From positions 159,526,001 to 159,590,000 of the forward strand of contig NC_091469.1 of assembly GCF_036971445.1 (NCBI RefSeq): DNA of 64,000 bases. Reading direction: 5' to 3'. Made by a program: the position numbers and the translations under genes. How positions within the stretch are numbered: position 1 is the stretch's first letter; every line of letters starts with the position of its first letter. This stretch comes from Narcine bancroftii. Lineage: Eukaryota. The notes beneath the pieces were generated by a model. The model saw nothing but the letters and a program-made list of their open reading frames with translations. It did not search any database and was not told the DNA's origin. This document shows positions 1 through 25,558 of the stretch, piece after piece.

Positions 1-1032
1 TTAGTTGTATCTTCCTTCATTGCTAATTCTTTTTCTATATTTACTATTTCCCTTTCCAACTGCTCTGTTTCCTGATTATAGTCCTTCTTCATCTTGGTTA
101 CATAACTTATTATTTGCCCTCTAATGAATGCTTTCATTGCATCCCATAGTATAAACTTATCTTTCACTGATTCCGTATTTATTTCAAAATACATTTTAAT
201 TTGTCTTTCAATGAATTCTCTAAAATCCTGCCTTTTAAGTAGCATGGTGTTTAATCTCCATCTATACATTCTTGGAGGGATGTCCTCTTACTCTATAGTC
301 AATATTAAGGGTGAATCGTCCGATAATATTCTAGCTTTATATTCTGTTTTTCTTACTCTATCTTGCATACGAGCTGATAACAAAAATAGGTCTATTCTTG
401 AGTATGTTTTATGTCTACCCGAATAATATGAATATTCCTTTTCCTTTGGGTGTTGTTTCCTCCATATATCCAAAAGTTGCATTTCTTCCATCGATTTAAT
501 TATAAATTTGGTTATTTTGTTCTTTCTGTTAATTTTTTTCCCAGCTTTGTCCATATTTGAATCCAAATTCAGGTTGAAATCCCCTCCTATTAATATGTTC
601 CCTTGCGTGTCTGCTATCTTCAAAAAAATATCTCGCATAAACTTTTGATCTTCTTCGTTAGGTGAATATACATTGAGTAGATTCCAAAACTCCGAATATA
701 TCTGACATTTTATCATTACATATCTCCCTGCTGGATCTATTATTTCCTCTTCTATTTTAATTGTTACATTTTTACTGATTAAATTAGCTACTCCTCTAGC
801 TTTTGAATTATATGACGCTGCTGTTACATGTCCTACCCAATCTCTCTTTAATTTCTTATGCTCCATTTCAGTTAAATGTGTTTCTTGCACGAATGCTATA
901 TCAATTTTTTCTTTTTTCAGTAAATTTAGCAGTTTCTTCCTTTTAATTTGGTTATGTATTCCGTTAATATTTAAAGTCATATAGTTCAACGTAGCCATTT
1001 CATACTTTGTTTATCTTCCCTTTCCGTTTCCT
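1..1032 (-). mobile_element. L1/Tx1-clade LINE, 5' part of ORF2 (APE endonuclease), running off the window to the left
   Basis: ORF 288..998: TLNINGI, VQETH, NVYSPN, IGGDFN, YSRIDLFL, SDD motifs. Premature TAA at 288; AT-rich L1-like sequence continues to base 1. Truncated just upstream of the ORF2 ATG. Confidence 0.93.
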
Positions 1033-2100
1033 AGAGGGTCAGGGTTGATATACCTTCAACAGGGATGATACAGGCTGGAGGGGCTCAGGGTGGTTATACC
1101 TACGACAGCGGAGATACAGGCTGGAGATGCTCAGGGTGGTTATACCTACAGTAGGGGAAATACAGGCTGGAGGAGCTCAGGGCTGTTATACTGATAACAG
1201 GGGAGATTCAGACAAGTGAGGATCTGGGATGTTATTCCTACAACAGGGCAGATGCAGACTGGAGGGTCTCAGGGTAGTTATACCTACAACAGCCAAGATT
1301 CAGGCAGGAGGGGCTCAGGGCTGTTATACCGACAAGAGGGGAGATACAGGTAGGTCAGTCTAAGGGCAGTTATACCTACAACAGGGTAGATATAGACAGA
1401 AGGGTCTCAGGGGGGGTATAACTACAACAGGGGAAATACAGACTGGAGGGGTTCAGTGTACTTATACCTACAACAGGGGAGATTCAGACAGGAGAGGGTC
1501 AGGGTGGATATACCTACAACAGAGATGATACAGGCTGGAGGGGCTCAGGGTGGTTATACCTACAACAGGGAAGATACTGACAGGAGAGGCTCAGGGTGGA
1601 TATACCTACAACGGGTGAGATATAGGCTGGAGGGGCTCAGCGTGGTTATACCGACAACAGCGGAGATACAGGCGGGAGGGCCTCAGGGCTGTTATACCTA
1701 CAACAGGGGAGATACAGACAGGAGGGTCTCATGATGGTTATACAGACATCAGGGGATATACAGGCTTGAGGGGCTTAGGGTGGATCTACCTACTACAGGG
1801 AAGTCACAGGCTGGAGGGGCTATATCTAGGCAGGAGGGTCAGGCTGGTTTTACCTAAGACAGGGAAGACACTGACAGGAGAGGCCCAGGGTAGTTATACC
1901 GACAACAGGGGAGATACGGGCTGGAGGAACTCTGGGTGGTTATACCTACAACAGGGGAAATACAGACAGCAGGGTCTGAGGGTGGTTATACCTACAACAG
2001 GGGAGATACTGGCTGGAGGTTCGCAGGGTGGTTATTCCGACAACAGGGGAGATGCAGGCTGGAGGGGCTCATGGCGATTATACCTACAACAGGTGGAGAT
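1033..2100 (+). repeat. 46-bp tandem satellite (~23 units), G-rich orientation
   Basis: Consensus GGTGGTTATACCTACAACAGGGGAGATACAGGCTGGAGGGGCTCAG; TGGTTATACC recurs at 1091 and 1137 (period 46). Confidence 0.95.
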
Positions 2101-2469
2101 AAGGACGGTACGTTCCTTAAGAAACACGGATAACCACTGATGGGAGAGGATTGGAGGGGAATGGGCCTGATGCTGGCATGTGGGACTAAAAGCAGGAAGG
2201 CAGGTTGTTCAACATAGACAGGCTGTGTCTGCTGGCCTGGTTCCCTGCTGTCAGACTGTAGGAGTCTCGCATTGAGGGGAGAGGACGGGACAGTGGGGAG
2301 AATGCTTGTGACCAGGCAGCGGATAGTCGAGTGTTCAGCTCGGGCTGACTGCCTGGCCCTCTCCTGAGGACATCTGTGTGTCCCTGGAGAAGGAGCACTC
2401 AGTGCTCACGGACAGTTTGGAGCGTCTCCAGAAATGGTTGGCTCCCCTAAGGGTTCACCAGATATGAGC

Positions 2470-2760
2470 CATAATAGACCCATCGGCCCATCGAGTCTAT
2501 GCCACCATTCTAATCATGAGCTGATCCATCCTTTCATTCACCCCCACTCCCCAGCCTTCTCCCCATAATCCTAGATGCCCTGACTCATCATATCCCAGTT
2601 GATCTCTGTTTTAAATACCACCAACGACCTGGCTTCCACATCTGCCTGTGGCAACAAGTTCCATAGACACACAACCCTCTGCCTAACAAAATTTCTCCAC
2701 ATATCAGTTTTCAATGGATACTCTTTTATCCTGAAGTTGTTCCCTCTTGCCCTTGACTCC
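2470..2760 (-). mobile_element. CR1 LINE 3' fragment
   Basis: ORF 2571..2762 RARGNNFRI...RNFVRQRVVCLWNLLP (CR1 C-terminus), followed by 3' UTR. Confidence 0.8.
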
Positions 2761-2829
2761 ATGTATTAACAGAGATAATCTTGTTGGAATTTGTATTTTA
2801 GGTTGTAAACTTTAAATTTTATTTTATTT

Positions 2830-3055
2830 TATTTTGATATACAGCGCGATAACAGGCCTTTCAGCCCCACAAGCTCGTGCTGCCCAATTACAACCCTCCC
2901 AGCCACATTTGTTTGAATGGTGGGAAGAAATTGGAGCCCCAGGGAAATCTCACACGGACAAGAAGAGAAGGAACAAACTCCTTACAGACAGCGTGGGATA
3001 AAATCCCCTGTCCTGATCGCTGGCAGTGGAAAAGCGTTGCACTACCTGCTACGTC
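2830..3055 (-). mobile_element. tRNA-derived V-SINE/HE1-like SINE
   Basis: Reverse complement carries the CTGTCTGTAAGGAGTTTG...TTCTTCCCACC core shared with copies at 16878, 23030, 24627 and 42480. Confidence 0.65.
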
Positions 3056-3069
3056 AAATGTGCCGTTAT

Positions 3070-3430
3070 GACACCAGAAACCCTGGCAAATTTCTGCAGG
3101 TGTCGGGTGGAAAATGTGCTGACCGGCTGTATCATGGTCTGATATGGTGACACCAATACACCTGAGTGTAAAGCTCTCCAAAATGTAGTGGACACAGCCC
3201 AGGACGTCACAGGCAAATCCCTCCCCACTATTGAGAACATCTATATAGAACGCAGCCATCGGAGAGCAGCAGGAATCATCAAGGATCCACACCTCCCAGC
3301 ACACGCTCTGTTCTCGCCGCTGCCATCAGGAGAGAGGTCTCGGTGCCACAGGACTCGTACCCCCAGGTTCAGGAACAGCTGCTCCCCCTCCACCATCAGA
3401 CTCCTCAACAACAAACTCAGAGACTCACTT
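3070..3430 (+). mobile_element. Rex1/Babar LINE 3' fragment
   Basis: KDPHLPAHALFSPLPSGERSR...RFRNSCSPSTIRLLN, the typical Rex1/Babar C-terminus. Confidence 0.8.
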
Positions 3431-3440
3431 AAGAACTCTT

Positions 3441-4955
3441 TAACATAACATATAACATAACATAACAATTACAGCACGGAAACAGGCCATTAGGCCCTTC
3501 TAGTCCACACCGAACCAAGCACTCCTCTCGAGTCCCACCTACCTGCACAATGACCATAACCCTCCACCTTCTTCTCATCCATATACTTGTCCAGCTTTTT
3601 CTTAAATAATAAAATTGACTCTGCCACCACTATTTCTCCCGGAAGCTCATTCCACACCGCTACCACTCTCTGAGTCAAGAAGTTCCCCCTCATGTTACCT
3701 CTAAACCTCTGCCCCTTAACTCTTAACGCATGTCCTCTTGTTTCAATCTCTCCTACTCTTAATGGAAATAGTCTATCCACATCCACTCTGTCTATCCCTT
3801 TCATAATCTTAAATACTTCTATCAAATCCCCTCTCAACCTTCTACGCTCCAAAGAATAAAGACCTAATCTGTCCAATCTCTCCCTATACTCTAGATGCTT
3901 AAACCCAGGTAACATTCTGGTAAACCTTCTCTGCACTCTCTCCACTCTGTTTATATCCTTCCTATAATTAGGCGACCAGAACTGCACACAGAACTCCAAA
4001 TTAGGCCGCACCAACGTCTTATACAATCTCAACATCACCTCCCAACTCCTATATTCCATGCAATGATTGATAAAGGCCAGCATACTAAAAGCCTTCTTCA
4101 CCACCCTATTCACGTGAGTTTCTACCTTCAGGGAACGATGTACCGTCACTCCTAAATCTTTCTGCTCTTCTGTATTTCTCAATGCTCTCCCATTTACCAC
4201 GTATGTCCTATTCTGATTCTTCTTACCAAAATGAAGCACCTCACACTTATCAGCATTAAATTCCATCTGCCATTTTTCAGCCCACTTTTCTAAGCAGCCC
4301 AAATCCCTCTGCAATCCTTGAAAACCTTCTTCATTATGCACTATTCCACCTATCTTAGTATCATCTGCATATTTACTAATCCAATTCACCACCCCATCAT
4401 CTAGATCATTAATGTATATAACGAACAACAATGGGCCCAATACAGATCCTTGAGGCACACCACTGGTCACCGGCCTCCAACCTGACAGACAATTATCCAC
4501 TACCACTCTCTGGCCTCTCCCTTTCAGCCAATGTTCAATCCATTTGACTATCTTAAAATTTATACCTAAAGACTGCACCTTCCTAACTAACCTTCCATGT
4601 GGTACCTTATCGAAGGCCTTACTGAAGTCCATATAGACAACATCCACTGTGCTACCCTCATCCACATTCCTAGTCACCTCTTCAAAAAATTCAATCAGAT
4701 TGGTCAAACATGACCTTCCTCCCACAAATCCATGTTGAGTGCTCCTGATCAGACCCTGTCTATCCAGGTATTTATAAGTACTATCTCTAAGAACTTTCTC
4801 CATTAATTTACCTACCACAGACGTCAAACTTACAGGCCGATAATTGCCAGGCTTCCTCATTGAACCCTTTTTAAATAGCGGAACCACATGCGCAATGCGC
4901 CAATCCTCCGGCACTATCCCCATATCTAATGACATTTGGAAAATTACCGTCAGAC
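3441..4955 (-). mobile_element. Young 5'-truncated CR1 LINE, RT and C-terminus uninterrupted
   Basis: 490-aa ORF with NYRPVSLTS, DFSKAFDKVPH, SGVPQGSVLGP, YADD; (TGTTA)n-type tail at 3441-3467. Confidence 0.96.
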
Positions 4956-5789
4956 AGTCCAAACCCTCGGCAGCCCAATCTCCAGATGCACATCTCCAAC
5001 ATGGTCAGGAAACCTCCAGCGCCCTCAGCACCCACTCACATCCCAGTTCTGATACCTGGTACCCCTTCTGTCGGTCTCCAGCTGGTCTCCAGAAGTCCAC
5101 AGCCTGGTGTGAGACCCTCAACCACGGTCACCAGCAGCCACAGCCTCCGTGGACTCCTCTCCTCGGGTCACCATGTATGACTCTGAACATTATTTATTAC
5201 TGAATATTTATTTCCTGTATCGTACAGTTTGTTTACACGTCCTTCTTGTTTACAGTTCTCCCTTTCTGCATCTTTCCTTGAGTCCAGGTTTTTTCACCAC
5301 TGATAATAGAAATTCTGCCTGCCTTGCAGGAATAAGAATCTCAGGGTTGTACGTGATGCCACATCTGTTCTCTGACAATACACCTGAACTCAAAGAATAT
5401 ACTCCAGAACAAAATAAACAGGAGCAGGATGCGGCCATTCGGCCTGTTGAGCCTGTTCCGCCGTTCAATGCGATCACGGCTGATCTGGTCATGGACTCAA
5501 CTCCACTTACCCAGCTGTTCCTCACAAACCTTAACTCCCCGACAGTGTAAAAATCAACCTGTGTCGTAAATAGAGGCCACCTCTAGTGGTTCATTGTCTT
5601 GTGATTCACGACTCTCTGGAAAAAGCAGTTCCTCCTCATCTCTGTCTTAAATCTGCACGTTTTAAAGTTGACATACATTTTGTATATCACGCTTTAAAAT
5701 ATTATTTTGTGACAATAAAAGGAACCTTGAAATCTGCAGCCCTATATCGTGAGGTAACGTCCCCTCATTCTCGTCTCATTTCCCATCCT

Positions 5790-5930
5790 ATTCCCTTGCT
5801 GACATGTCTGTTCACGGCCTCATGCACGGTCGGACTGAGACCAGCCGCAAATTGGAGATTCACACCTCATCTTCCATCCAGGCACCCTCCAACCCAATGG
5901 CACCAACATTGACTTCTCTGGTTTCCATTA
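5790..5930 (+). mobile_element. Penelope-like element, GIY-YIG C-terminal fragment
   Basis: DMSVHGLMH...RKLE... similar to copies at 17190 and 22545. Confidence 0.6.
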
Positions 5931-6049
5931 AACACACCACCACCTCCATCTTTGTCCCCCTGACTCCTTTTCTCTTTCTCTGTCTCCGTCCCTCTCCCCT
6001 TTTCGCCCTGTCACTTTACACAGAACCAACATCAATTCTCACCTGCCCT

Positions 6050-6510
6050 TTTGTTTTGAAAATTTTATTTATACATCATAATAAATCATACAACCAGAGT
6101 ACAATCCAAAACATAATTCTTTATCCCATATAAACCCTGGCCTCGACCCTCTCCCACCCACCCTTCCCAACCCCCCTCTAAACTAACTGAAAGGAAGAGG
6201 AGATGAAAACATTTTTCCCTTCGATTATTGGCCCTGGATTGGGTCAACACCATCAATGCATTGGAAAGAAAATATTAATAATTAAATCACATCTATTCCA
6301 TATACAGGCTCCAAGTTTTAACAAAAAGGGAACAATTATTTTGTAAATTGTATGTTATTTTTTGCAATTGGATACAAAACCTCATTTCCAAATGCCATCT
6401 TTCAATACTCAAATTAGTTTCATTTTTAAGTAATTGCGAGACATTTTTTAACCACCCTAAAGTCAATCTTAAAAATGCAATTTGAAATTTATCTAATTTT
6501 AACTCCAAAT
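6050..6510 (-). mobile_element. L1/Tx1 3' end fragment
   Basis: ORF 6293..6508 (LDKFQIAFLRL...KITYNL...W) matches the C-terminus of the L1 at 62310; AATAAA and A-tail on minus near 6055-6070. Confidence 0.75.
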
Positions 6511-7429
6511 TTTTGAATCCCCACCCCCACCACCAACTGCCATGGAATGTCCCAAGTTCTGAACGATAAGGTTAGCAGAGAAGGTGAGAAAGAAAGGAGG
6601 CAGGGAGGTCAACAGAAAACACCTACTGTACCCCTGGATGGGAACCGACAGCAAGAGGACTTGAACGACACAGGTACCTACCATGTTGACCCATGTTGAA
6701 GTATGTATGACCCACGTAAAGTTCGACCTCCCCCCCACATTTGATCCGAAAATTTGGACCTAAAAAGTGGACTATTACACGAGTATATCCGGTTATTTTA
6801 TTTTATTTTTTCACTACCTGCTGAACTGTGTCAATGGATAGCACATAAAACAAAGCTTTTCACTGCATCTGGGAACATTGGAAACATTAATTCAATACAC
6901 TGCAGCCAAAAGCTTTCCCCATAACCAGGGAGGACCAAGGCAGGAAGCCTGAAGATGAACACCCAGTGGTACAGAAACAGCTTCTTCCCCTCCGCCATCA
7001 GATTTCTGAACAGACGATGATCCACAGACACAGCCTCACCTTCTCCTCTTGTCCACTAATTTATTTATTGTTTAAATTTCATTTGTAGCAATATGTGCAA
7101 CTAATGCTGCCCCAATACAACAAATTTCGTAACGTTCATGACATTATAGCACGACCAAAACAGGGCCACCCTCCTCACCCTGGTTTTCCCGTCAAAGCCT
7201 TTCCCCCACCATGGAAATTCCAAAGTCCCAACCGCAACGTTAACAGAGACGATACAGAAAAAGACCTACTGAAACCCTGGACGGAGATCGACAGCAGGAC
7301 CCCACAGAGACAGACCCACTGAAAGCTCATCACCAACGTTTCAGTGTCGACTTCTCTCAGCAAAATAATTCTTATTTTCCCACATTCAAAAATAGATGTG
7401 GTTGCAAATGTTTCTTCACTTCCTACCGT

Positions 7430-7870
7430 GGACACACATCATCTACTCATGTGTTCAGGAAGGTACAACAGTGACTGCGCTTCCTGAGAAGACTGAAGTG
7501 GGCAAGGCTACCAGCCACCATTATGTCATCCTTCTACAGGAGCTCTATCGAGGGTGTCCTGTTGGCTGGATCACGATGGGGTACAGTTGCTGATGAGAAA
7601 TGGAACGGAGGTCAATCCACGTGATCATAATTGTGGCAGAGAGGATCAGTGGAGTTTCCTTCCCCACCCCACATTGACGAGATCTACTGGGATTGTTGTT
7701 TGAAGTGGGTGCATGAAATCATTGAGAACCCCTTCCACCCTGCACACAGCATCTTTCAGCTGTTCCTATCAGGGAAGAGATACAGGAGGATCAGAGCCAG
7801 AACCACCAGGCTGAGGAACAGCTTCTTCCCACGGGCAGTGAGAATGCTGGACGACCAAAGGAACTGATCA
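7430..7870 (+). mobile_element. Rex1/Babar LINE 3' fragment
   Basis: HPAHSIFQLFLSGKRYRRIRARTTRLRNSFFPRAVRML. Confidence 0.8.
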
Positions 7871-8084
7871 CGCTGACCATCCGAGATTCTCACTTAGACA
7901 AAACAATATTAATTTATCTTTATCGAGGAAGTAAAAAGTTAGGTTCTACTTGTACAATCAGACAACAATAAACTTGACTTGACGAGACTTATCTTTGCCA
8001 TATAAAGGAGACTCTTTGACCAGCTGAGTTTCTCCAGCATCGGGTTTTTACTTCAACCGTGGTGTCTGCACTTTTGTGTTTTAC

Positions 8085-8400
8085 CCTCTGATTGAGTTTG
8101 TGGTTGAGGAGTCTGATGGTGGAGGGGGAGCAGCTGTTCCTGAACCTGGTGGAGCGGGACTTGTGGAACCGAGACCTCTCTCCTGATGGCTGCAGAGAGA
8201 ACAGAGCATGTGCTGGGTGGTGTGGACCCTCAATGACTGCTGCTCCTCTCTGATGGAAGCGTTCCCTGTAGATTTTGAAGTGGGTGGGGAGGGTTTGGCC
8301 TGTGATTTGCTGGGTCCATGATCTTTTGCGGGGCTTTCCACTCAGAGTTCTTGGTGACCCCATACCAGACCATGATCCGACTTCCAAGAATTGCATCATG
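8085..8400 (-). mobile_element. Rex1/Babar LINE 3' fragment
   Basis: HHPAHALFSLQPSGERSR...RFRNSCSPSTIRLLN; same subfamily as 3070. Confidence 0.8.
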
Positions 8401-8719
8401 GTGCACTTTAGTGGATCCACCTGTCAAATCTCCGCCTGACTTTCCAACTGTTTTGCCTCCTGATGTCTCCTTCAACAGCCTTTCATGGGTTGGAATGTTC
8501 ACCCCGTGTCTGTGTGGGTTTTCCCTGGGGCCTCCCGTTTCCTTCCAGCATTCTAAACGTATCAGGGGCGTAAGTTAATTGTGTGTAAATTGGGTGGCAT
8601 GGACTCGTGGGCCAAAATGACCTGTAACTGTGTGTATGTCTATAAGAAATGAATAAATTACTAACCTGCTATTAAAGAAATGTGAGAGGGTACATCAAAA
8701 AGCAAGGTCACATGATCTT

Positions 8720-9630
8720 AAGACACGAGCAGAAATACACCATTCAGCCCATCGAGTCAGCCCCACCATTTAATCATGTGCTGATCCATTTTCCCACTCA
8801 GCCACACTGCCCGGCCTCTCCCATAACCTTTAAAGCCCTGGCTAATCAATAAGCTATCAATCTCTGCCTTAAATACACCTCAATGACCTGGCCTCCCCAA
8901 CCAACTGTGGCAAAAAATTCCACAGATTCATCACCCTCTGGCTGAAGAAATTCTTACGGGTCTCTGTTCTCAGTGGACACCCTTCAATCCTAAAGCTGTG
9001 CCCTCTTGTCCAAGACTCTCCCACTGTGGGAAATAACCTTTCTACATCTACTCTGTCCATGCATTTCAACATTTGAAATATTTAAATGAGATTCCCCCTC
9101 ACACCCTCACATTCTTCATAATTCCAATGAGTACAGACCAAGAACTGTCAAATGTTCCTCAAATTGTAACCCTTTCATTCTCTGAATCATCCTTGTGAAC
9201 CTCCCCTGAATCCTCTCCAATGTCAGCACATCTTTTCTTAAATGAGGAGTCTAAAACTGCTCACAATTCTCCAAGTGAGGTCTTTCCAGGGCCTTATAAA
9301 CCTCAACATCACATCCCTGCTCTTGTATTTGATTCCTCTTGAAATGAACGGCAGCATCGCATTGGCCTTCTTCACCACCACCTCAACCTGCAAGTTCATC
9401 TTCAGACGATACTGCACGAGGACTCCCAGTCTCTCTACATCTGAGTATCTTCCATTTTCTCCCCATTTATACAATAATTTGCTCATTTATTTTTTCATGA
9501 CTGTACACTTTGTGACATCTCTGCGCATTCTCCTCTGTCCGAGTCCTTCTGCAACCTCCCTGCTTCCCCAACACTGCTAGCTCCTCCTTTGTATCAACTG
9601 CAAACTTGACCACAAAGCCCTTAATTCCAT
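8720..9630 (-). mobile_element. Degenerate CR1 3' portion
   Basis: ORFs 8869..9072 and 9238..9486 (VVKKANAML, RKNFFSQRVMNLWN). Confidence 0.85.
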
Positions 9631-10189
9631 GACCAACAAACAAAGCTCCCGGCAAGGAATGCACCAAAGTTCACGTTAATTCTCACCGGTTCTGAGATGT
9701 TGAGATGTTCTTTTACAGGCTGGCCTGTTGGATATCTCATACATAGTACAATGAATAAGATATAGTACAGAAAATCAGCCTATCAATTCTTCCCCACCAT
9801 TCAGCCCCACTGCCCGGCCTTCTCACCACTGTCTGGTTTTCTCCCCATTGCCCAGCCTTTTCCCCATTGCCCGGCCTTTTACCCAATGACTGACCTTCTC
9901 CCCACTGCCCCGCCTTCTCCCTATAAACTTTAATACCCGGGGGAATCAAGATCCTGTCAATCTCTGCCTTAAATGCACCCAATTATGTTCAAAAGCAGAA
10001 TTGTGTTTAGAAACATACAGGATGTGGAAGCTCATTAAAGCCGTGAAACTGTTTTAAGAGGAAGTCAGAAGAGAGACAGGGTATTTCAAGAATGAGCCGA
10101 GAAAGCACTCGGAACATCGAAGCCCGAACCCCCAAAAGGAACAAAGGGACATGTTGCTGCAGCAATTAACGTTTGTCACACAAGCTACA

Positions 10190-10695
10190 AGAGCAGAAGT
10201 AGGCCAATTGGCCCATCGGGGCTGCTCTGCCATTTAATCATGAGCTGATCCTTATCACTCAGCCCCACTTCCCAGCCTTCTTCCCGTAACCCTTGATGCC
10301 CTGACTAATCATTTTAAATAAACCAAATGACTTTGCTTCCACCATCGCCTGTGGCAACAAGTTCCACAGACTCGCGACCCTCTGTCTAAAGACATTTCTC
10401 CGCATCACGGTTTTAAACTGACACCCTTTTATCCTGAAGTAGTGGCCCCTTGTCCTAGACTCCCCAGGATGGGAAACACCCTTTGCACATCTACTCTGTT
10501 CAGGCCTTTCCACATTGAAAATGTCTATGAATCCCCGCTCCTCCTTCTGTACTCCAACGAGTGCCGTCCAAGAGCTGACAAACGCTCCTCATTTGCTAAC
10601 TCTATTATTCCTGGTATCATTCTAGTAAATCTGCTCTGAAACCTCTCCAATGCCAGCACATCCTTTCTCAAATAAGGTACCAAAAACTGTACAAA
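10190..10695 (-). mobile_element. CR1 3' fragment
   Basis: ESRTRGHYFRI...RRNVFRQRVASLWNLLP. Confidence 0.8.
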
Positions 10696-11004
10696 AGACA
10701 GGTAGTCCCCGACTCACAACTCTCCCCACAAACGTGCAAATTTTTATAAATATATACACATAAAAAGAACATAAGATTTACATGGTTTATGTTGTATTTC
10801 ACAAACTATAACAGGGTTACAAGAACCAAGATGTGCGTACTTACCTTGTTAGTCAACATTCCGGATACTGAGGTTGGGCACGGCCATCTTGATTCCTGTG
10901 CAAATATGCGAGCCTTCAGACGGTGCATGCGCTGTGGGGTTCGCGTATTGGAGTTCGGTTGGCGCATGTGGGGGAATTAAGGATGTGATTTGAATATGGG
11001 CAAC

Positions 11005-13575
11005 ACAGAAACATAGAAGATAGGAGCAGGAGTAGGTCATTCGGCCCTTCGTGCCTGCTCCGCCATTCAATGAGATCATGGCTGATCTTAAAGTACAGTA
11101 TCCCGTCCCCGCCTTCTCTCTGTAACCCCTAATTCCCTTATACTGAAGAAATATATATAATTCCCTCTTAAATATATTCAATGAACCTGCCTCTACTGCC
11201 CTCTGTGGCAATGAATTCCACAGATTCACCACCCTCTGGGTAAAGAAATTCCTCCTCATCTCGGTCATAAATGGTGTACCTATTATCCTCAAACCATGGC
11301 CCCGGGTTCTGCACTCCCCCACCATTGGAAACATCCCTTTCGCATCCATTTTGTCCAGTCCTGCCAGAATTTTATATGTCTCTATGAGATCCACTCTCAA
11401 TCTTCTAAACTCCAGTGAGTACAATCTCAAATTGTGCAATCTTTCCTCCTAAGTTATTCCTGCCATTCCAGGTATCAGCCTTGTGAATCGCCTTTGCACT
11501 CCCTCCATTGCAAGAACATCCTTCCATAGATAAGGCGACAAAATCTGCACAAAATACTCCAGGTGGGGTCTCACCAAGGCTCTGTACAGCTGCAGTAAGG
11601 TATCCTTATTCCTATACTCAAACGCTCATGATATGAAGGGCAACATACCATTTGCCTTTTTAACCACCTGTTGTACCTGCATACTCGCCTTCAGTGACTG
11701 GTGCACAAGAACCCCTAGGTCTCTCTGCACTTCCCCATCTCCAAATCTATTGCCATTCAAATAGTAATCTGCCCTCCGGTTTGTATTACCAAAGTGGATA
11801 ACCTCACATTTATCCACATTGTAGTGCATTTGCCATGTTTCTGCCCAGTCCCTCAATTTATCCAAATCACACTGGAGCTTCCTGACCCCTTCTTCAATGC
11901 ACACAACCGCTCCGCGCTTAGTGTCGTCTGCAAATTTGGAGATATTACATCCAATCCCCTCATCTAGATCATTAATGTAAATTGTGAACAGCTGGGATCC
12001 CAGTACAGATCCCTGTGGCACCCCACTGGTCACCGCCTGCCACTCAGAAAATGAGCCGTTTATCCCAACTCTCTGTCTTCTATCTGCCATCCAGTTCTCA
12101 ATCCACATCAATACTTTGCCCCCAATCCCATGAGCCTTGATTTTGGAAGCCAGTCATTTATGTGGGACCTTATCAAAGGCCTTTTGGAAATCCAGGTACA
12201 CCACATCCACTGGCTCTCCCCCATCTATTTTACCTGTCACCATCTCAAAGAATTCCAATAGATTTGTCAAGCATGATTTACCTTTTGTAAATCCATGTTG
12301 ACTCTGTCCGATCCCTTCTCTGCTCGTCATATGCTCCGCAATTATATCCTTAATAATAAATTCCATCATTTTGCCCACTACTGATGTAAGGCTCACCGGC
12401 CTATAATTCCCCGCTTTTTCTCTACTTTTTAAATAGTGGGGTAACATTATCTACCCTCCAATCCATGGCTTCTGATCCTGAGTCTATTGAGTTCTGGAAA
12501 ATAATTCTTAAAGCATCTTCTATCTGAATGTCCACTTCTTTAAGTACCCTAGGATGTAGATTATCAGGCCCTTGGGATTTATTGGCCTTCAATCCCATCA
12601 ATTTCCCCAAGACCATGTCCTTAGAGATCCTGATTTCTTTCAGCCTCTCCCTTGCATTAGTCTCTATGTTTCCCAACATCCTTGGGAGGTTATTTGTATC
12701 CTCTCTTGTAAAAACAGAACTAACGTAGGAATTTAATTGGTCTGCCATTTCCTTATTCCCCAATATATATTCCTAAAGAAATCTCTTGGTGCCTGCCACA
12801 TTGACCACCGCCAGTGGGCTGATAACGCCTCAAACCGTGCATCTTGGCGCCTCACAGTTTGGCGGGCAGCAGCCTCCTTTGAAGAAGACCGCAGAGCCCA
12901 CCTCACTGACAAAAGGCAAAGGAGGAAAAACCCAACACCCAACCCCAACCAACCAATTTTCCCTTGCAACCGCTGCAATCGTGTCTGCCTGTCCCGCATC
13001 GGACTGGTCAGCCACAAACGAGCCTGCAGCTGACGTGGACTTTTTTACCCCCTCCATAAATCTTCGTCCGCGAAGCCAAGCCAAAGAAAAAAAAATATAT
13101 ATATTCCCCTGATTCTGACTGCAATTTCACCAATCTTTTCCTCTTGACATATTTATTAAAGTTTTTGCAGCTGGTTTTTATGTTTGCCGCAAGTTTAGTT
13201 TCATAATTTATTTTTGCCCTCTTGATTAATCCCTTTGTCCTCCTTTGGTGCATCTTGAACTGCTCCCAGTCTTCGGATTTGGTACTTTTTTTGGCCAATT
13301 GATATGCTCTCTCTTTGGACCTAATGGTGTCTCTAATTTCCCTTGTTATCCACGGTTGAGTCACCTTTTTTGGTTTATTTTTATGCCAAACCGGTATAAA
13401 CGATTTTTGCAATTTCTCCATTAGATCTGTGAATGCTTTCCAATGTCTATCCACAGTCAACTCCCCCATAAACACCACCAAATCAATCTTACTGAACTCC
13501 CGTCTCATACCATCATAATTCAATTTATTTAAATTCAGGACCTTAGTCTCAGTTTTAATTTCTTCATTCTCCATG
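11005..13575 (-). mobile_element. CR1 LINE, same subfamily as 53144-55120, interrupted by an RTE
   Basis: Broken ORFs 10849-13661 with RT motifs (DFQKAFDKVPH, SGVPQGS, FADD); closely similar to 53144-55120 in opposite orientation. Confidence 0.95.
12774..13096 (+). mobile_element. RTE-clade LINE 3' fragment inserted in CR1, 11-bp TSD
   Basis: LKKSLGACHIDHRQW...CNRCNRVCLSRIGLVSHKRAC, near-identical to 56167-56430; TSD ATATATATTCC at 12763-12773 and 13097-13107. Confidence 0.93.
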
Positions 13576-15918
13576 TCGAGTTTTGCATCCTCTCTCATTG
13601 ATTCATCTACATATTGATTTTGAAAACTTTCCTGTACACATTTGACAAACTCCCAAGCCACCCAGTCCTTTTACAGTATGGGAGTCCCAATCAATATGTG
13701 GAAAGTTAAAATCGCCTACTACCACAACTTTGTTTCTTACAATGGTCTGCCAGCTCCTGACCGATTTGTGCCTCCAATTCTCTCAAACTATTGGGTGCTC
13801 CATAATACAAGCCTATTAATGTGTTGACACCTTTCCCGTTTCATAGTTCCACCCAAAAGGCTTCTGTAGATGAGCCCTCTGGACTGTCTTGTCTAAACTC
13901 AGCTATGATAATTTCCCTGACTAGCAACACCACTCCTTCCCCTTTCATCCCTCCCCCTTTATCCGTCTCAAACAACGGAACTCCAGAACATGGAACTGCC
14001 AGCCCTGCAACCAAGTCTCACTCAAGCAATAACATCATAATCCCACGTGCCCATCCACTCCCTCAGCTCATCTACCTTACCGACAATACTCCTCACATTG
14101 AAATAGATGCATCAGAGATCATTTCCTCCCCACCAACTGTATCCAAAGCAGTTGATTGATTGGTGATGCGAACTGCCACAGGGGTTCTTCTACCCCTTCC
14201 CCTCCCCTTCCCAACTGTCACCCAAGTGCCTGGCTCCTGACTCTTCGGGGTTCCTGCCTCCCTCAAACTCCTCTCCATCACTGCCTCTGCCGACCCAACG
14301 ATTCAAAGTTCATCCAGCTGCAGCTCCAGTTCCCTAACTCCGTTTATCAGGAGCTGCAGCTGGATGCACCTCTTGCAGGTGTCATCATTGGCAACAAAGT
14401 GTTGTCCCTGACTTCCCACATCCTGCAGGCGGAACACTGGACTGGCCTAACAACTGCCTCTATTACCCAATTCCTCAGTTAATTAACTAGCTTAATGAAA
14501 GAAACTTTCCACTCTTCGCTTACTGGGAGCAAACTCCTCCTCAGCCACCACAGACAAGGCCACCATGTCCCTTTCTTCCCCTGCCCTCCCCCCCCCCACC
14601 ATCACTGGCTGCTTTAACAGCTCTCCCTCTTTTTCCATGTCACCATCTATTGCCAGCTGAGGTGGTGAATGTGGGCTCAGTTTTAACATTTAAGAAGTAT
14701 TTGGTCAGGTGCATGGATGGGAGGGGTATGGAGGGATATGACCTAGGTACAGGTTAGTGGGACAAGGCAAAAATGGTTCAGCAAAGAATAGAAGGGCCGA
14801 AGAGGCCTGTTTCTGTGCTGTAATGTTCCATGGTTCTAAGCAGGCCCTTCAACCCTTCTAGTCTGTTCCAAACTCTTATTCTGCCTAGTCCCAATGACCA
14901 TATTCCTGCTAACCTTCCCATCCATGTCACAGTCCAAATGTTTCGTGTATGTCAAGTTCACTTTGGCAGCTCGTTCCACTCTCCCACTACTCATTCTGTG
15001 AAAAGTTTCCTCCTGACGTTCTCCCTAAACTTCTCCCCTAACCCATGTCTTCCAGTTCTTGTCCCACCCCAACCTCTGTGGAAAAATCCGCAGATAGAAC
15101 CACGTGGGGATGAAGGGAACAGTTAAGTGATGGGGGAACCAGCTGGGGGTGAGAGGTGTGGGATGGATATGGGAATGGGAACCAGGTAAGGGGTGGGGGA
15201 GAGGGGGTTTGGATGGATAAATAGTGGGGCAACCAGATTAGAGAGGGGGGGAACAGATAAATAATGAGAGATCACAACCAGACATCACACATGTACAGAC
15301 AAATAATACACATGCGGGACAAGTACTTTATTGATATAAATATTATTTTATGAATATGAGAGTTTTGGATGGTCAGTGTGAGCAGTTCCTTTGGTCATTC
15401 AGCATTCTCACTGCCAGTGGGAAGAAGGTGTTCCCCAGCCTTGTGGTGCCGGCTCTGATCCTCCTGTATCTCTTCCCTGACGGGATCAGCTGAAAGATGC
15501 TGTGTGTAGGTTGGAAGGGGTCCTCAATAATTTTACACACCTTCTTCAGACAACGATCCTGGTAGATCACATCAATGGTGGGCAGAGAGACTCTAGAGAT
15601 CCTCTCTGTCACACTTCTGGTCCTGTCGATTCACCTCCAATCCATTTCTCCACAGCAACTGTACCACACAGTGATGCAGCCGGCCAGGAGGCTCTCAGTA
15701 GATCTCCTGTAGGAGGTTGACATCATGGTGGCAGGTAGCCTTACCCGCCTCAGCCTTCTCTTGAAGTGCAGGCACTATTGTGCCTACCTGACAATTGAGG
15801 AGATGTTGCGTGTCCATAATAGGTCATTACTTAAGTCCACGATAGGTCACTAGTTGAGTGGGATAGAGGCCAGTAGATGATTTTCAGGTGGTACCAGGTC
15901 GGGTAGAGGGAATGGAAC
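13576..15918 (+). repeat. Segmental duplication copy A (CR1 5' part + CR1 tails + G-rich tract + Rex fragment)
   Basis: Collinear, high-identity match to 33571-36524 across several unrelated TE junctions. Confidence 0.93.
15370..15830 (-). mobile_element. Rex1/Babar 3' fragment (duplicated at 35975-36440)
   Basis: ORFs 15373..15612 and 35979..36218 are nearly identical. Confidence 0.8.
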
Positions 15919-16646
15919 AGAACCATAAAAGATAAAACACTTACACTAAGAAACAAGCCCCTGGCTCTTCTAGTATCTTCCAAACTAATATTCTGTCTAC
16001 TCCCACTTACCTGCACCCAGACCATACCACTGCAGGCCCCTCCTATCCGTGTAATGTCCAAATCTTTCTTGTATCTCAAATTCAAGTTGGCAGCTCATTC
16101 CACACTCTCTCTACTCTCTGTTATGAAAACATTCCCCCTGATGATCACCCTAAGCTTCTCCCCTTTCACCCTTAACCCATGTCCTCCAGGTCTTGTCTCA
16201 CTCCAACCTCAGTGCAACAAGTCTGCTTTCATTTACTCTGTCTATCCCACTCAGAATTTTAAATACCTCTATCAAATCCCCCTCATTCTTCTGCACTCCA
16301 GGGAATAAAGTTCTAACCTGTTGAACTTTTCCCTGTAACTCAGTTCCTGAAGTTCTGGCAGCATCTGAGTAAACCAAGTTGGGGTGGATGTGAGGCAGAT
16401 AGAACTAAGTGGGGGAGAGGAGGTAAGTGATGGGGAAACCAGAAGAGGTGAGCAGGATGGTTTAGTGAAGTGATGGGGGAACCAGGTAAGGGAGTAAGGG
16501 ATGGGGAAGTGAGTGAGGAGAGAGAGATGACCAGATGGAACCTGGTGGGTGTCGGGTGGGTGCAGCAGTCTCGTTTGTCCTCCATCCTTTGAGGGGCAAG
16601 GACTCAACGTGCAATGCACAATCATTGTTCTCGCTCTCTTTCCCAG

Positions 16647-16736
16647 ACTCGTTGAACCCCACCTTCATTTATGTGCCGGTTCTCCTGGTTCTCCTGATCA
16701 CACTTGGCATCATCCTTCTCATCTTCCAGAAAAAAG
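16647..16736 (+). CDS. Transmembrane exon of a type I Ig-superfamily receptor: (D)SLNPTFIYVPVLLVLLITLGIILLIFQKK(G)
   Basis: Strong acceptor ttctcgctctctttcccAG, donor G|gtgagc, 90 nt, phase 1/1; ~21-aa hydrophobic helix followed by KK; non-TE sequence. Confidence 0.82.
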
Positions 16737-16877
16737 GTGAGCTCCTTTCTCGCTGACCAAACACATCTCTCACTGAAGGAGGCCGAACCAATCAGCTCAC
16801 TAACCCATCTCTATTTTACTGCCAGTGCTGGGTGCAGGGTGGTGAAGTGGGAAATGGGTTATCCAACAGAAGATGGA

Positions 16878-17110
16878 TGGCACAGTTGACATAGTGATTA
16901 GGGCAACGCTGTTACAGCATCAGAGACCCAGGTTCCAATCTGGCGCTGTCTGTCAGGAGTTTCCACGTTCTCTCCATGACATGCGAGAGGTGCTCCGGTT
17001 TCCTCCCAATTTTCAAAACATACAAAGATTCTAGATTAATTGGGGTATTTGTGTGTTATGGCCTCATGAACCAGAAGGGCCTGTTACTGTACTGCATGTC
17101 CAAATTTAAA
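16878..17110 (+). mobile_element. tRNA-derived V-SINE/HE1-like SINE
   Basis: Degenerate A/B boxes (GGTTCCAATC), core GGAGTTTCCACGTTCTC...GCTCCGGTTTCCTCCC, CR1-like tail. Confidence 0.7.
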
Positions 17111-17189
17111 TGAAGTTGGGTGATCTCTGCTGCCCCTCCCCAGTTGCCTGGTTTCCCAAGGTCACATTCAAACCTCTCTTCACTTTCCC

Positions 17190-17640
17190 CAGGAACCACT
17201 CCCTCCATGACTCCCAAGTCCACTCCTCCCTTCCCATTCCTTGGCACCTACCCATGTTCACACAGGAGATGCTCCACCTGCCCCCACACCTCCTGCCTCA
17301 GCACGATTTGGGGCCCCAAACAGTCCTTCCAAGTAAAGCAACACTTCTCTTGTGAATCTACAGGGGTTATCTACTGCATCTGGTACTCCCTTTGTGGTCT
17401 CCTCTACATCGGAGAGACAGGGCACAGTCTGGGACATGGCTTCACTGAGCACCTTCTCTCCATCTACAGCAAGGACCTCCCAGTGGCCAACCATTTTAAT
17501 TCCCTGCACCATTCCAACACTGACATAACTGTCCATGGCCTGACATATGGCCAAACGAGGCCACCTACAAATTGGAGGAACAACACCTAATATTTGATCT
17601 GGGCCCCCTCCAACCAGAGACAACCTCCAATTTCCAGAAA
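17190..17640 (+). mobile_element. Penelope-like element, GIY-YIG endonuclease fragment
   Basis: CSTCPH...GPKQSFQVKQHFSCESTGVIYCIW...LYIGETG...EHL...VANHFN. Confidence 0.88.
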
Positions 17641-18209
17641 CACCCTTCCCTAAGATTTTCTTTCCCTCTCCCTCTGCCTCCTTCCCCCCCCCACCTTCCC
17701 CCCCCACCACCACCTTCCCTCTCCATTCAGAGAGTTACCCTGCCCCCATCACTTCTCAGCTTCTTCCTCTTCTCCCCTCCCACCCGTCTCCACCTTTTAC
17801 CTGTTGGCCTGTGATCCCCCCCCTTCCCCTTCCTCCCTCCTTCCCCCTCCCCACCTTTTTATTCAGGCACCTACCTCCTTTTAGCTTGTGCCTTGACCTG
17901 GAGTTCCCACCCACCTGTGCTGTGGCGATTCCCACTGGTCCTCTCCTTGTCCACACAAACCATCAGCTTGCTCAAACCGGAGTTGGATCTCAGGGATTGG
18001 CGGACAACTGGGTCAAGACTGGGTCCAAAGTTAGCATGGATAGCATGGGCCAAATGGCCTCATACTTCACTGCTGTTGTGATAAGTCTCCATTCAATTCT
18101 GCTCACTGTTCATGTGGCTGAAAGGTGTGATTACAGCTTGGTGAGTGAGGTTATAAATTTCGTGGTGAATTTGTCATGTGAATCCAAGGTGTGGGACTCG
18201 ATTCATTGG

Positions 18210-18430
18210 AGAGGGTGTCAGTGATAAGGGAGAGTGTCCATGGGTAGGATGTCTGTGAGGTAGAGTGTCCATGGGGAGTGGGTAATAGCGGAGAGTGTCC
18301 GTGGGGAGAGTTGGTGATGGGGGAGAGTGTCTGGGGGGAGAGTTAGTGATGGGGAGAATGTCTGTGGGGAGAGGGAGTGACGGGGGAGAGTGTCCAAGAG
18401 GAGAGTCGATGATGGGATGAGTCCCCCTGA
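18210..18430 (+). repeat. G-rich minisatellite, ~31-32 bp unit, ~6-7 copies
   Basis: GAGAGTGTC-like core recurs at 18230, 18260, 18291, 18323, 18354 and 18386. Confidence 0.8.
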
Positions 18431-18439
18431 GCCATGACA

Positions 18440-19729
18440 TTGAGTTCTCCAGTATTACATCATCTGCTCAATATTTGGAAGAAGATTCATGTAGAAAGGA
18501 ATAAAACAAATTACCAATTACCAAAACTAATACTGACGCAAAATCAGCTAATCCCTTTTACAATAGATAACCTTTCCTTTAGAGAATGGGAGAAAAAATG
18601 GATCAAAAGAATAGAAAATTGTTTTTCAGGTAATAAATTACTATCCTTTGAACAAATGAGGGATAAATATAATATAACTCAAGATACAGTGCTGGCATAT
18701 TACCAACTGAGATCCTACTTGAAGGATAAATTAGGAAGTAGTCTGAGTTTACCAGAGGGAAGTAATTTTGAATATGTGATTACAGATACAATGATAATCA
18801 AAAAATTTATAACAAATATGTATATTAAACTGCAAGAAAAGGAGAATGAGGAAACAAATGATAAAACTAAACAAAAATGGGAACAAGATTTAAACAAAAA
18901 GATAAAGAAGGAAACATGGGAGAAGTTATGCTCTGGAACTATGAGAAATACAATAAACACGAGGTTACGTATGATACAATATAACTGGATACACAGGCTA
19001 TACATTACACCTCAAAAGTTAAATAAATGAGACCCAACAGTATCTGACAGATGTTTTCATTGTAAAAAAGAAATGGGAACAACAATTCATGCAATCTGGA
19101 CGTGTGAGAAAGTGAAAAAATTTTGGGAAGATCTAAACCAGATATTAAATAAAATTACAGAAAACAATATACCAAAAAACCCAGAGATCTTCCTCCTAAG
19201 TAACATAAAAAACAAAGAATTTGGAATTGATTTGGAGGATGCACAAAAAAGATTTGTTAAGATAGCTCTAGCCGTAGCAAAAAAATGTATCATGTCAACC
19301 TGGAAATTGGAAGATAATTTGAGAATACAACAATGGTATATAGAAATGAATAAATGTATTCCATTAGAAAAAATAACATATAGTTTAAGAAATAATATTG
19401 AAATATTTGAACAAATATGGGAGCCTTACATGAAACACAATAGAGAAAACCTACCGGGGACATTCACTACCTAAATTAACGAAAGGAGAAGGAAATGAAA
19501 AGAATTGACTCAGTGGAATTTCTGGTTTATTTTTATTGAATGACAACATTGTTTGACTGGTTTAATGTATCTTAGATTCTGTACTTTAAATGAATGGGGG
19601 TGGAGATAGGGAGGGTGGGATGGGAAGAAGGAGGGGGGGAGAAAATGACACTATATATTTGAAAAGGAAAATGTATGTATTTTGGTCAATGTGGTTTATG
19701 GTGTGAAAAATAAAAAATTTTAAAAAAAA
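18440..19729 (+). mobile_element. L1/Tx1 LINE 3' part (ORF2 C-terminus with CCHC knuckle, 3' UTR, poly-A)
   Basis: ORFs 18434..19030 and 19073..19474 are in one frame, split by a single TGA; CFHC...HAIWTC; AATAAA and A-run at ~19709-19729. Confidence 0.93.
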
Positions 19730-21860
19730 CCTTGACCCTCTCCTGTCTGCATCACCTCTGTTGTCGGTATAACTACTTGAGGCTCTCCAGCCTGTATCTC
19801 CCTGTTGTAGGTGTAACTACCCAGAGCCCCTCTGTCTATATATCCCCTCATGTTGGTATAACCGTCCAGAGGCCCTCCTGCCCATATCTCCCCTTTTGTC
19901 AGTATAACTGCCCTGAGCCCATTCAGTCTGTGTCTCCCCTGTTGTAGGTATAACCACCCTGAGCCGCTGCAGCCTGTATCTCCCCTGTTGGTGGTATAAC
20001 CACTCTGAACCCCTCCAGCCTCTAACTCCCCTGTTGTAGGTATACCCACTCTGAGACCCTCCTGTCTGTATCTCCCCTGTTGTAGGTATAACCGCCCTTA
20101 GACCTCCTACCTGTATCTCCCCTGTTGTCGGTATAACAGTCCTGATTCCCGCCTGCCTGTATCTCCCCTGTTGTTGGTATAACCACGCTGAGCTCCTCCA
20201 GCCTGTATCGCCCCTAGTGTAGTTATAATAGCCCTGAGCCCCTCAAACCTCTATTTCCCATGTTCTCGGTATAACTACCCTGAGACACTCCTGTCTGTAT
20301 CTCTCCTTTTGTAGGTATAACAACCCTGAGACCCTACAGGCTGCATCTTCCCTCATCTAGGTATAACCGCCCTCAGCCCCTCAAGCCTGTATCTCCCCTG
20401 TTGTAGGTATAACCACCATGAGCCCCTCAATCCTGTATCTCCCCTCTTGTCTGTGTTACCACCTTGAGACCCTCCTGTCTGTATCTCCCCTGTTGTAGGT
20501 ATAACCACCCTGAGGCCTTCCAGCCTGCATCTCCCCTGTTGTCGGTATACCCACCCTCAGACACTGCTGTCTGTATTTCCCCTGTTGTCGGTATAATGCC
20601 CTGAGCCACTTCAGCCTGTATCTCCCCTGTTGTAGGTATCACTACCCTGAGACCCTCCTGCCTGTATCTCAGCTGTTGTCGGTATAACTACCCTGAGACC
20701 CTCCTGTCTGCATCTGCCCTGTTGTAGGTATAACCTCCCAGATCATCTCCTGACTGAATCTCCCCTGTTATCCGTATAACAGCCCTGAGCCCCTCCAGCC
20801 TGTATTTCCCCTACTGTAGGTATAACCATCCTGAGCACCTCCAGCCTGTATCTCCCTGTTGTAGGTGTAACCAACCTGAGCCCCTCCAGCCTGTATCACC
20901 CCTGTTGTAGGTATATCCACCCTGAGCCCCTCCTGTCTGTATCTCCCCTGATGTAGGTATAACCACCCATAGGCCCTCCTGCCCGTATCTCCCCTGTTGT
21001 CGTTATAACTGCCCTGAACCCCTACAGCCTCTAACTCCCCTGTTGTTGGTATAACCACGCTGATCCCCTCCAGCTAGTATCTCCCCAGATGTCTGTATAA
21101 TCAACCTGAGCCCCTCCTGTTTGTATTTCCCCTGTTTAGGTATAACCGCCCTGAGACCCTGCTACCTGTATCTCCCCTGTTATTGTTATAACTGCCCTGA
21201 ACCCCTCCAGCCTCTAACTCCCCTGTTGTAGGTATAACCGCCCTGAGACCCTGCTACCTGTATGTCCCCTGTTCTTGGTATAACATCCCTGAGCCCCTCC
21301 AGCCTGTATCTCCCCTGGTGTATGTATAACCACCCTCAGCCCCTCAAGCCTGAATCTCCCTTGTTGTAGGTATAACCACTCTGAGACCCTCCAGCCTGCA
21401 GCTTCCTTGTCGATATCACCCCCCTGAGCTCCTCCAACCTGTATGTCCCCTGTTGCAGGTATAACCACCCTGATCCCCTCCAGCCTGTATCCCCCCTGTT
21501 GTTGGTATATCCACCCTGAGCCTCTCCTGTCAGTATCTTCCCTGTTGTACATATAACCACCCTGAACCCCTACAGCCTCTAACTCCCCTGTTGTTTGTAT
21601 AACCGCCCTCAGCCCCTGCAGCCTGTATCTCCCCTTTTGTCTGTATAACCGCCATGAGCCCCTCCAGCCTGTATCTCCCCTGTTTTAGGTATAACCGCCC
21701 TGAGCCCCTACAGCCTGTATCTCCTCAGTTGTAGGTATAACCATCCAGAGCCCCTCCAGCCTGTATCTCCCCTGTTTTAGGTATAACCGCCCTGAGCCCC
21801 TCCAGCCTCTTACTCCTCTGTTGTAGGTATAATCACCCTGAGCTCCTCCTGCCTCGAACA
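19728..21860 (-). repeat. 46-bp tandem satellite (~46 units), reverse orientation to 1033-2100
   Basis: Units CTGTATCTCCCCTGTTGTAGGTATAACCACCCTGAGCCCCTCCAGC are the reverse complement of the 1033-2100 consensus. Confidence 0.95.
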
Positions 21861-21998
21861 CCCCTGTTCTACTGTGTTTATGTCTCAATCAGACCCAGCA
21901 GCATCTGACGACGTGTGATGAACAGATTCGCATCCTGAAACTCCCGGTGTTTTCTCCAGTTCTTCCAATACTGATTCCCCTCCCCTCTCTCCCTGCAG

Positions 21999-25162: not shown

Positions 25163-25558
25163 CTCCTAACAGGAAGGGCTCAGTGGTGAGTGGGACTGAG
25201 GGAGGTTCAGTCACCTTACCCTGTGTGTTCCAACGGCCTCTGTCTGACCTCACCCTGCACACAGTCACTTGGATGATGAAGGATCCTTATTGGCACGTTC
25301 TCACATTCAGGCACAGATCTGATGGATCGTGGGTGGCAGAAAGTGATGCAACTCGATACGAGCTCGTCGGGGACCCTGAACATGGAAACACCTCAAACCG
25401 GATAAACCAGCTGAGTGTACGAAACAGTCACGGCTACCTGTGTCTGGTGGAGTCCGGAAAACCAGCTCATTTCCGTTACCCAATGGAATATTATGATCAT
25501 GCGAAGACCCCGTATATTTATCTGAGCCAGTGCGAGGCCCACTTGGTGGACTCTCCCG
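25163..25558 (+). CDS. Second Ig V-set exon (Siglec/PILR-like fold, long F-G loop)
   Basis: Acceptor tgtctgtccttccatcAG, donor G|gtaaga, 396 nt, phase 1/1, open; GTEGGSVTLPC, VTW, RYELVGDPEHGNTS.RINQL, YLC. Confidence 0.87.

What the first reader, a model, noticed from the sequence alone, without database searches (positions are those of the whole stretch)
1..19741. Split L1 sharing one TSD across 18.7 kb: hidden inversion or inverted duplication next to the Ig receptor exons
Seen: the minus-strand L1 5' half (1-1032) is flanked, in L1 orientation, by AACCCTGACCCTCT (revcomp of 1033-1046). The plus-strand L1 3' half is followed directly after its poly-A by AACCTTGACCCTCT (19728-19741), 13/14 identical. 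Both halves abut the same 46-bp satellite in the same relative orientation and register, and the parts visible here are non-overlapping. Inference: one L1 inserted in the satellite. Then either the segment ending at ~18440 was inverted (breakpoint inside the L1), or the satellite+L1 unit was duplicated in inverted orientation and truncated. This could explain the scrambled exon order.
Basis: partly seen in the sequence, partly recalled or inferred. Interest (0 to 1): 0.75.

Follow-up and report, generated by a model that had tools for sequence, protein, structure and literature searches.

The report
Inverted, broken copy of receptor gene
The two L1 pieces are not halves of one element but two copies of one insertion, carried by an immune-receptor gene and its inverted, about 3% diverged duplicate, which lacks its start and membrane-anchor exons and is likely a dead gene - ordinary turnover in a receptor gene cluster.

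Summary
The minus-strand L1 continues 3 kb left of the window to its own poly-A and an exact 14/14 copy of the TSD; removing it restores one 46-bp satellite period. It lies in intron 1 of an intact Siglec-like V-V-TM receptor gene (leader at window 7330). The piece at 18442-19727 belongs to an inverted duplicate of that gene: L1, satellite units, V1, V2 and about 27 kb of homologous sequence are collinear at 3.2% divergence. The duplicate has no leader, TM or most tail exons: a pseudogene by structure. At 18442 the intron behind an orphan TM exon of another paralog joins the L1 interior over 2-bp microhomology, which explains the TM-V-V exon order. The real strand switch is near 11002. Independent targeted insertion is disfavoured (0 of 23 other family copies touch the satellite). 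Reads neither confirmed nor refuted the junction. Verdict: segmental duplication plus deletions in a birth-and-death Ig-receptor cluster of an electric ray; low interest.

The parts
1..1032 (-). 5' part of a 5'-truncated L1-type element (4.07 kb in all; continues left of the window to -3037 = G000:C1:159522963); ORF2 broken into pieces
   Evidence: Exo_endo_phos PF03372 E 8e-12 on 288-1010
1033..1046 (-). 5' copy of the target-site duplication; its true partner (14/14) lies at window -3049..-3036
1039..2101 (-). upstream half of the 46-bp minisatellite in intron 1 of the left gene (GL)
7271..7330 (-). leader exon of the intact left gene GL (protein P0002); V1, V2, TM and tail exons lie at window -5443 to -54620
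   Evidence: tblastn of P0002
11002..13575 (-). CR1-like LINE piece (label recalled; RVT_1 hit) whose 3' end marks the switch from GL upstream DNA (minus block) to the plus-strand block; interrupted by another repeat at 12772-13096
   Evidence: its 5' junction at 13576 is shared with one other place only, C1:159312980-159313220 (2 of 40 scored)
13576..18441 (+). remnant U of another paralog: intron 3 end, orphan TM exon, intron 4 with 16/32-bp minisatellite; equals GL -26651 to about -32430
16647..16736 (+). orphan TM exon, open frame, AG/GT intact
18442..18443 (.). junction of U intron 4 to the L1 interior; 2-bp microhomology, no inserted bases
   Evidence: found once in the genome search
18442..19727 (+). 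3' 1.29 kb of the duplicated L1 (copy of window -1748..-3036)
   Evidence: 39/1280 substitutions to the left copy; closest of 24 copies compared
19728..19741 (+). duplicated 3' TSD copy with one substitution
19729..21868 (+). duplicated downstream half of the 46-bp minisatellite, orthologous unit by unit to GL -3036..-5313
   Evidence: 95.5% over 2002 aligned bases against 76-77% between neighbouring units
21999..22391 (+). V1 exon of the duplicate G2 (open frame)
   Evidence: V-set E 6.7e-09
25163..25558 (+). V2 exon of G2 (open frame)
   Evidence: V-set E 6.8e-08
36524..36744 (.). deletion junction in G2: GL -29505..-48032 (TM and six tail exons) absent, with a 219-bp piece placed here inverted
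41171..41206 (+). last coding exon of G2 (the penultimate exon is also deleted)

Best explanation
The two L1 pieces are two copies of one insertion: an L1 with an intact 14-bp target-site duplication sits in the intron-1 minisatellite of an intact minus-strand receptor gene, and 18442-45129 is an inverted, about 3% diverged duplicate of that gene that lacks its leader, TM and most tail exons and is likely a pseudogene. Shown: one complete insertion on the left; collinear homology of L1, satellite, V1, V2, introns and last exon; the junction at 18442 with 2-bp microhomology; loss of exons. Inferred order: (1) a 5'-truncated L1 inserted once by target-primed reverse transcription; (2) soon afterwards (the two copies differ by 3.05%, family pairs by 3.17% on average) a gene-sized segment was duplicated and one copy came to lie inverted; (3) a deletion repaired by end joining or template switching fused intron 4 of an upstream same-strand paralog (U) to the inside of the duplicate's L1, removing promoter, leader, upstream satellite, 5' TSD and 2.8 kb of L1, and leaving a TM exon in front of V1; (4) further deletions removed the duplicate's own TM and tail exons.
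For: Only 2 of 40 scored places match an L1-end-plus-satellite query over its full length, the window and a 96% minus-strand copy 3 kb to the left. Exact TSD on both sides of the left L1; anchors 22+24 = one 46-bp period across the removed element. G2 vs GL: 538 substitutions in 16585 compared sites over seven segments, 2.7-4.0% each. Satellite units orthologous at 95.5%. V1 exons of G2 and GL group together, FastTree support 0.963, 7 sequences. Left L1 is the nearest of 24 copies (2.83% vs 3.16-3.90%). Junction sequences. No leader-like sequence on the plus strand between 2102 and 21998 (best 31 mismatches of 61). No database protein carries the G2 V1 sequence; the best match among 12 hits is 90%, the left gene.
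Against: No orthologous empty site was found: the arrays of paralogs G3/G4 match the insertion flanks at only 80-84%. The two L1 copies share only 2 rare variants, no more than some unrelated copies (0-4), so the L1 sequence alone does not prove common descent; the flanks do. No contig bridging 18442 was listed (see Tried and rejected). Step 3 cannot be told from a head-to-tail tandem duplication by the junction alone, and U is a mosaic (1% from G2 over about 400 bp, 5% elsewhere). Which copy is the inverted one is not shown without an outgroup.
Confidence: 0.85

Rival explanations
1. One L1 was split by an inversion with a breakpoint at ~18440.
For: Same TSD motif and register on both pieces; no overlap inside the window.
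Against: The minus L1 continues through the 18442-equivalent position to its own poly-A and exact TSD; DNA left of 18442 is plus-strand paralog intron, not inverted L1-flanking DNA.
Confidence: 0.01
2. Two independent L1 insertions targeted the same satellite unit.
For: The L1 family is large and about as old as the duplication (pairwise mean 3.17%); a different LINE also inserted into this satellite in G3/G4.
Against: 0 of 23 other close copies show the satellite behind their 3' end (4 of these alignments stopped short of the tail's end); no L1 match in intron 1 of G3/G4; the flanks share private unit variants; the motif is absent from 6 other arrays.
Confidence: 0.03
3. Same duplication, but the 18442 junction is the seam of a head-to-tail tandem duplication inside G2 or the closure of a DNA circle (L1 to intron 4) that reinserted, giving the order B-C / A-B.
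For: The junction joins the end of segment C to the start of segment A over microhomology and segment B is present twice, the pattern described for circular intermediates (PMC7450558, abstract seen). In 959 columns B1 and G2 share 5 states against GL, G3, G4 and G0; a 400-bp tract is 1% apart.
Against: U's TM region is 5.2-7.1% from its nearest paralogs, about twice the G2-GL distance; U carries a LINE junction shared with the older paralog G0 and absent from GL, G2, G3, G4; 8 sites group B1 with G0.
Confidence: 0.15
4. The right-hand block or its junction is an assembly artefact.
For: No bridging contig was listed in the runs laid; a 99% identical ~200-kb duplication with a gap lies nearby.
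Against: G2 differs from GL by 3% with private insertions and deletions on each side; no N gap within 145 kb of the junction; a 2-bp overlap is not the kind of join assemblers make (general knowledge); contigs of a DNA sample match U-specific sequence 17912-18331 with 0-3 differences.
Confidence: 0.05

Closest known systems
Mammalian CD33-related Siglec cluster (SIGLEC11/16, SIGLEC5/14)
   Same: Clustered Ig-lectin-like receptor genes in both orientations that evolve by duplication, conversion, exon shuffling and loss (PMC2915791, passages seen; it cites Cao et al. 2009 on a large inverse duplication, title only); long conversion between inverted paralogs (PMC12770363, passages seen).
   Different: Here two V-set domains and no C2-set domain; cartilaginous fish; no activating partner gene was seen; orthology not shown.
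Siglec-15
   Same: Best solved-structure match for both V exons (7zoz, E 6e-07 and 2.5e-06); V1 keeps the arginine aligned with the ligand-binding Arg; ray and shark homologs are labelled Siglec-15 or Siglec-12 like.
   Different: V-V instead of V-C2, no lysine in the TM, long tail with tyrosine motifs, one leader exon, multi-copy cluster.
LINE-1 insertion used as a shared marker of segmental duplicates
   Same: 5' truncation, poly-A tail, short TSD; same insertion inherited by both duplicates (general knowledge).
   Different: Nothing in kind.
Segmental duplication through circular DNA intermediates (PMC7450558 abstract; tilapia vasa PMC3245284, listing only)
   Same: Permuted block order with a microhomology junction.
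   Different: Local, inside a paralog array where simple deletion gives the same order; the displaced block is older than the rest.

Membership tests
L1-type retrotransposon insertion | APE-like endonuclease at ORF2 start | tested here: met
   PF03372 E 8.2e-12
L1-type retrotransposon insertion | poly-A tail and flanking TSD | tested here: met
   left copy: exact 14-bp duplication, first two A's not separable from the tail
L1-type retrotransposon insertion | clade assignment against a repeat library | not testable with these tools
   no Dfam/Repbase held; the names L1 and CR1 are by anatomy and recall
Inversion splitting one element | the two halves are complementary, no overlap | tested here: not met
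   left element contains the whole right piece
Inverted segmental duplication | >1 kb, >90% identity, collinear, opposite strands | tested here: met
   16585 sites at 3.2% over a 27-kb right arm and 73-kb left arm
Siglec-15 | V-set domain with essential arginine | tested here: met
   V1 aligns R to the Siglec-15 motif; V2 has L there; feature from PMC13711574 passages
Siglec-15 | single C2-set second domain | tested here: not met
   second domain is V-set
Siglec-15 | transmembrane lysine, short tail | tested here: not met
   uncharged TM and ~110-residue tail with tyrosine motifs in P0002
Siglec family | sialic-acid binding | not testable with these tools
   needs a binding assay; GL V1 lacks both canonical V-domain cysteines
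Circular-intermediate duplication | permuted order with all blocks of one age | tested here: inconclusive
   order fits; block ages differ (3% vs 5-7%) but conversion blurs them

The most novel reading that the evidence does not exclude
The right-hand block is a circularly permuted gene copy made through a ~30-kb extrachromosomal DNA circle (closed at 18442) that recombined back into its own receptor cluster, placing a TM exon in splice phase ahead of two V exons: circle-mediated exon reordering caught in an immune-receptor array.
Probability: 0.07. Interest if true: 0.5.

Novelty: new member of a known kind. Interest (0 to 1): 0.2.

Why it matters
Little as a mechanism: duplication, inversion, conversion and decay are the normal life of Ig-receptor clusters. 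Its modest value is descriptive: the shared L1 orders and roughly dates events in a cluster of unnamed Siglec-like V-V receptor genes of an electric ray (proteins labelled 'uncharacterized'), for which 4 paper searches listed no description. The cluster shows a ~56-kb near-identity between oppositely oriented paralogs that swaps V1 against V2-plus-tail, a route to receptor diversity worth a specialist's look.

Tried and rejected
Read support for the 18442 junction: 11 runs listed; X1-X4 (one sample) laid on 17900-19000 and X1, X4, X5, X7 on 18340-18490. All are short assembled contigs; no listed piece bridges 18442, the only piece near it is the G4 paralog's version, and most pieces were not shown; no verdict. 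No RNA holder on record, so nothing on expression. Empty-site search in G3/G4 arrays: 80-84% only, uninformative. Rare-variant sharing between L1 copies: 2 shared, not discriminating. Idea that the LINE/old-LINE junction at 13576 is a dispersed chimeric family: rejected, 2 of 40 scored places span it. 3' transduction by L1 as the source of G2: rejected, 27 kb with introns and no terminal tail seen at the end of homology. Earlier scan findings: none by place or words. Paper searches: (0 papers); none listed this locus; supplements were not opened. The three distant V1 matches at C1:158.0-158.2 Mb and the array of the second truncated copy at ~322000 were not examined.
Full report
Coordinates are window coordinates; negative numbers lie left of the window (position p = G000:C1:159526000+p). 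I examined 804 kb of the own genome (window -260000 to +544000), which has one N gap, at 165362-165561. Proteins from a contig of the same length are labelled Narcine bancroftii by the database.

Observation. But a search with window 19500-19900 found a 96% full-length copy on the minus strand 3 kb left of the window, one of only 2 full-length matches among 40 scored places. Reading that DNA shows the minus L1 running on through the position where the right piece begins, to its own poly-A and an exact 14/14 TSD copy at -3049..-3036. Satellite anchors lie 22 bases before and 24 bases after the removed element, one full period. The left element is thus one complete, 5'-truncated insertion of 4.07 kb with a broken ORF2. 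The inversion-split reading is refuted.

What the left copy sits in. A leader exon at 7330-7271 (minus), V1 at -5443, V2 at -8554, TM at -30242 and tail exons to -54620 match protein P0002 at 99-100%. The L1 and satellite are in intron 1 of this gene (GL). Both Ig domains are V-set; Siglec-15 is the best solved-structure match, V1 keeps the key arginine, but the V-V layout, uncharged TM and long tyrosine-bearing tail fail Siglec-15's defining features (PMC13711574, passages seen). It is Siglec-like, probably inhibitory (inference). V1 has 10 matches among 22 candidates in the genome, all on C1: 7 within 0.6 Mb and 3 about 1.4 Mb away. Order in the region: G0(-), G1(+), GL(-), remnant U(+), G2(+), truncated copy at 127 kb(+), G3(+), truncated copy at 320 kb(+), G4(+).

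What the right piece is. From 18442 to 45129 the window is collinear with GL -1748 to -74381 on the other strand. Substitution distances G2-GL: L1 39/1280, V1 block 26/942, V1-V2 130/3241, intron 3 120/4401, later segments 67/2293, 41/1091, 115/3337; together 3.2%. The downstream satellite halves align unit by unit at 95.5% over 2002 bases, against 76-77% between neighbouring units. V1 of G2 and GL form a clade (0.963). The left L1 is the nearest of 24 copies to the right one (2.83% against 3.16-3.90%), though only 2 rare variants are shared, and none of the 23 other copies (the top hits of 40 scored among 3708 candidates) shows the satellite after its 3' end. G3 and G4 carry a different LINE in this satellite and no L1. 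So one insertion was duplicated, likely soon after it landed, since unrelated family copies differ by 3.17% on average.

G2 is broken. No leader-like sequence lies on the plus strand between 2102 and 21998. GL -29505..-48032, with the TM and six tail exons, is absent at 36524, where a 219-bp piece sits inverted; the penultimate exon is also gone. V1 and V2 frames are open. No database protein has its V1. Pseudogene status is inferred from structure; expression was not testable.

The odd exon order. 13576-18441 is a further copy of intron 3 end, TM exon (16647-16736) and intron 4, on the plus strand. At 18442 it passes into the L1 over a 2-bp microhomology with no filler; the join was found once in the genome. 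Both sides have the same orientation, so this is not an inversion breakpoint. The strand switch is at about 11002, where GL upstream DNA meets the 3' end of a CR1-like element (label recalled; RVT_1) while paralogous upstream DNA continues without it. U looks older than G2: its TM region is 7.1% from GL/G3, 5.2% from G4, 11.8% from G0, and it shares a LINE junction with G0 alone (6.1% apart in the LINE against 6.8-7.2% for two other copies). I therefore read 18442 as a deletion fusing two tandem paralogs. Against this, part of U is only 1% from G2 and 5 sites group them, so a tandem duplication or circular intermediate (PMC7450558, abstract) is not excluded. The TM exon and V1 are in the same splice phase, but no start exon or promoter was found for such a product.

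Assembly check. Contigs of one DNA sample match U-specific sequence with 0-3 differences, but no listed piece bridges 18442; this gives no verdict. Three per cent divergence with private indels argues against a haplotype artefact for G2.

Comparison with what is known. Duplication, inverse duplication, conversion and exon loss are the described mode of evolution of CD33-related Siglec clusters (PMC2915791 and PMC12770363, passages seen; Cao et al. 2009 seen as a reference title only). This locus is another instance in a ray. Searches listed no paper on it; the library lacks most subscription journals and supplements were not opened.

Verdict. New member of a known kind; interest 0.2.

Noticed in passing
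window -8100..-64102 (GL) vs 197700..247000 (G3): Oppositely oriented paralogs GL and G3 are 0.3-0.6% apart from V2 to beyond the last exon (about 56 kb) but 3-5% apart in leader-V1, and G3's 3' flank is G2's (0.84%): a very long conversion tract, repeated inversion, or two haplotypes in one assembly.
   Followed up: partly
window 41466-247020 vs 247020-about 440000: About 200-kb tandem duplication at 97.7-99.9% identity with the region's only N gap (165362-165561) inside it; may be real or a haplotype false duplication.
   Followed up: partly
window 186843-191168 and 386628-390953: The same 46-bp intron-1 satellite in G3/G4 holds a different 4.3-kb LINE (CR1-like) insertion; the array ranges from about 10 to 117 units among paralogs and was not detected in G0.
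   Followed up: partly
GL V1 exon, window -5443..-5835; G3, G4 V1: GL V1 lacks both canonical V-domain cysteines and G3/G4 lack the first, while keeping the Siglec-type arginine and an extra cysteine pair.
   Followed up: no
window -35800..-44600: A 2.8-kb tandem unit repeats a tyrosine-motif tail exon three times in GL against once in G3 and G4, changing tail length.
   Followed up: no
window -54881..-63193 and -203569..-211878: An 8.3-kb element with 478-bp terminal direct repeats is present in GL, G3 and G0 at about 99% identity and absent from G2; observed only.
   Followed up: no
P0004 (G0) C-terminus: The annotated isoform ends in sequence resembling a LINE ORF1 start (matches at window 14410-14451, 27176-27265, 34414-34455), likely an exonised repeat or annotation artefact.
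   Followed up: no
window 126929-129206 and 320410-322687: Two more truncated copies: leader exon, short satellite and only the last third of V1.
   Followed up: no
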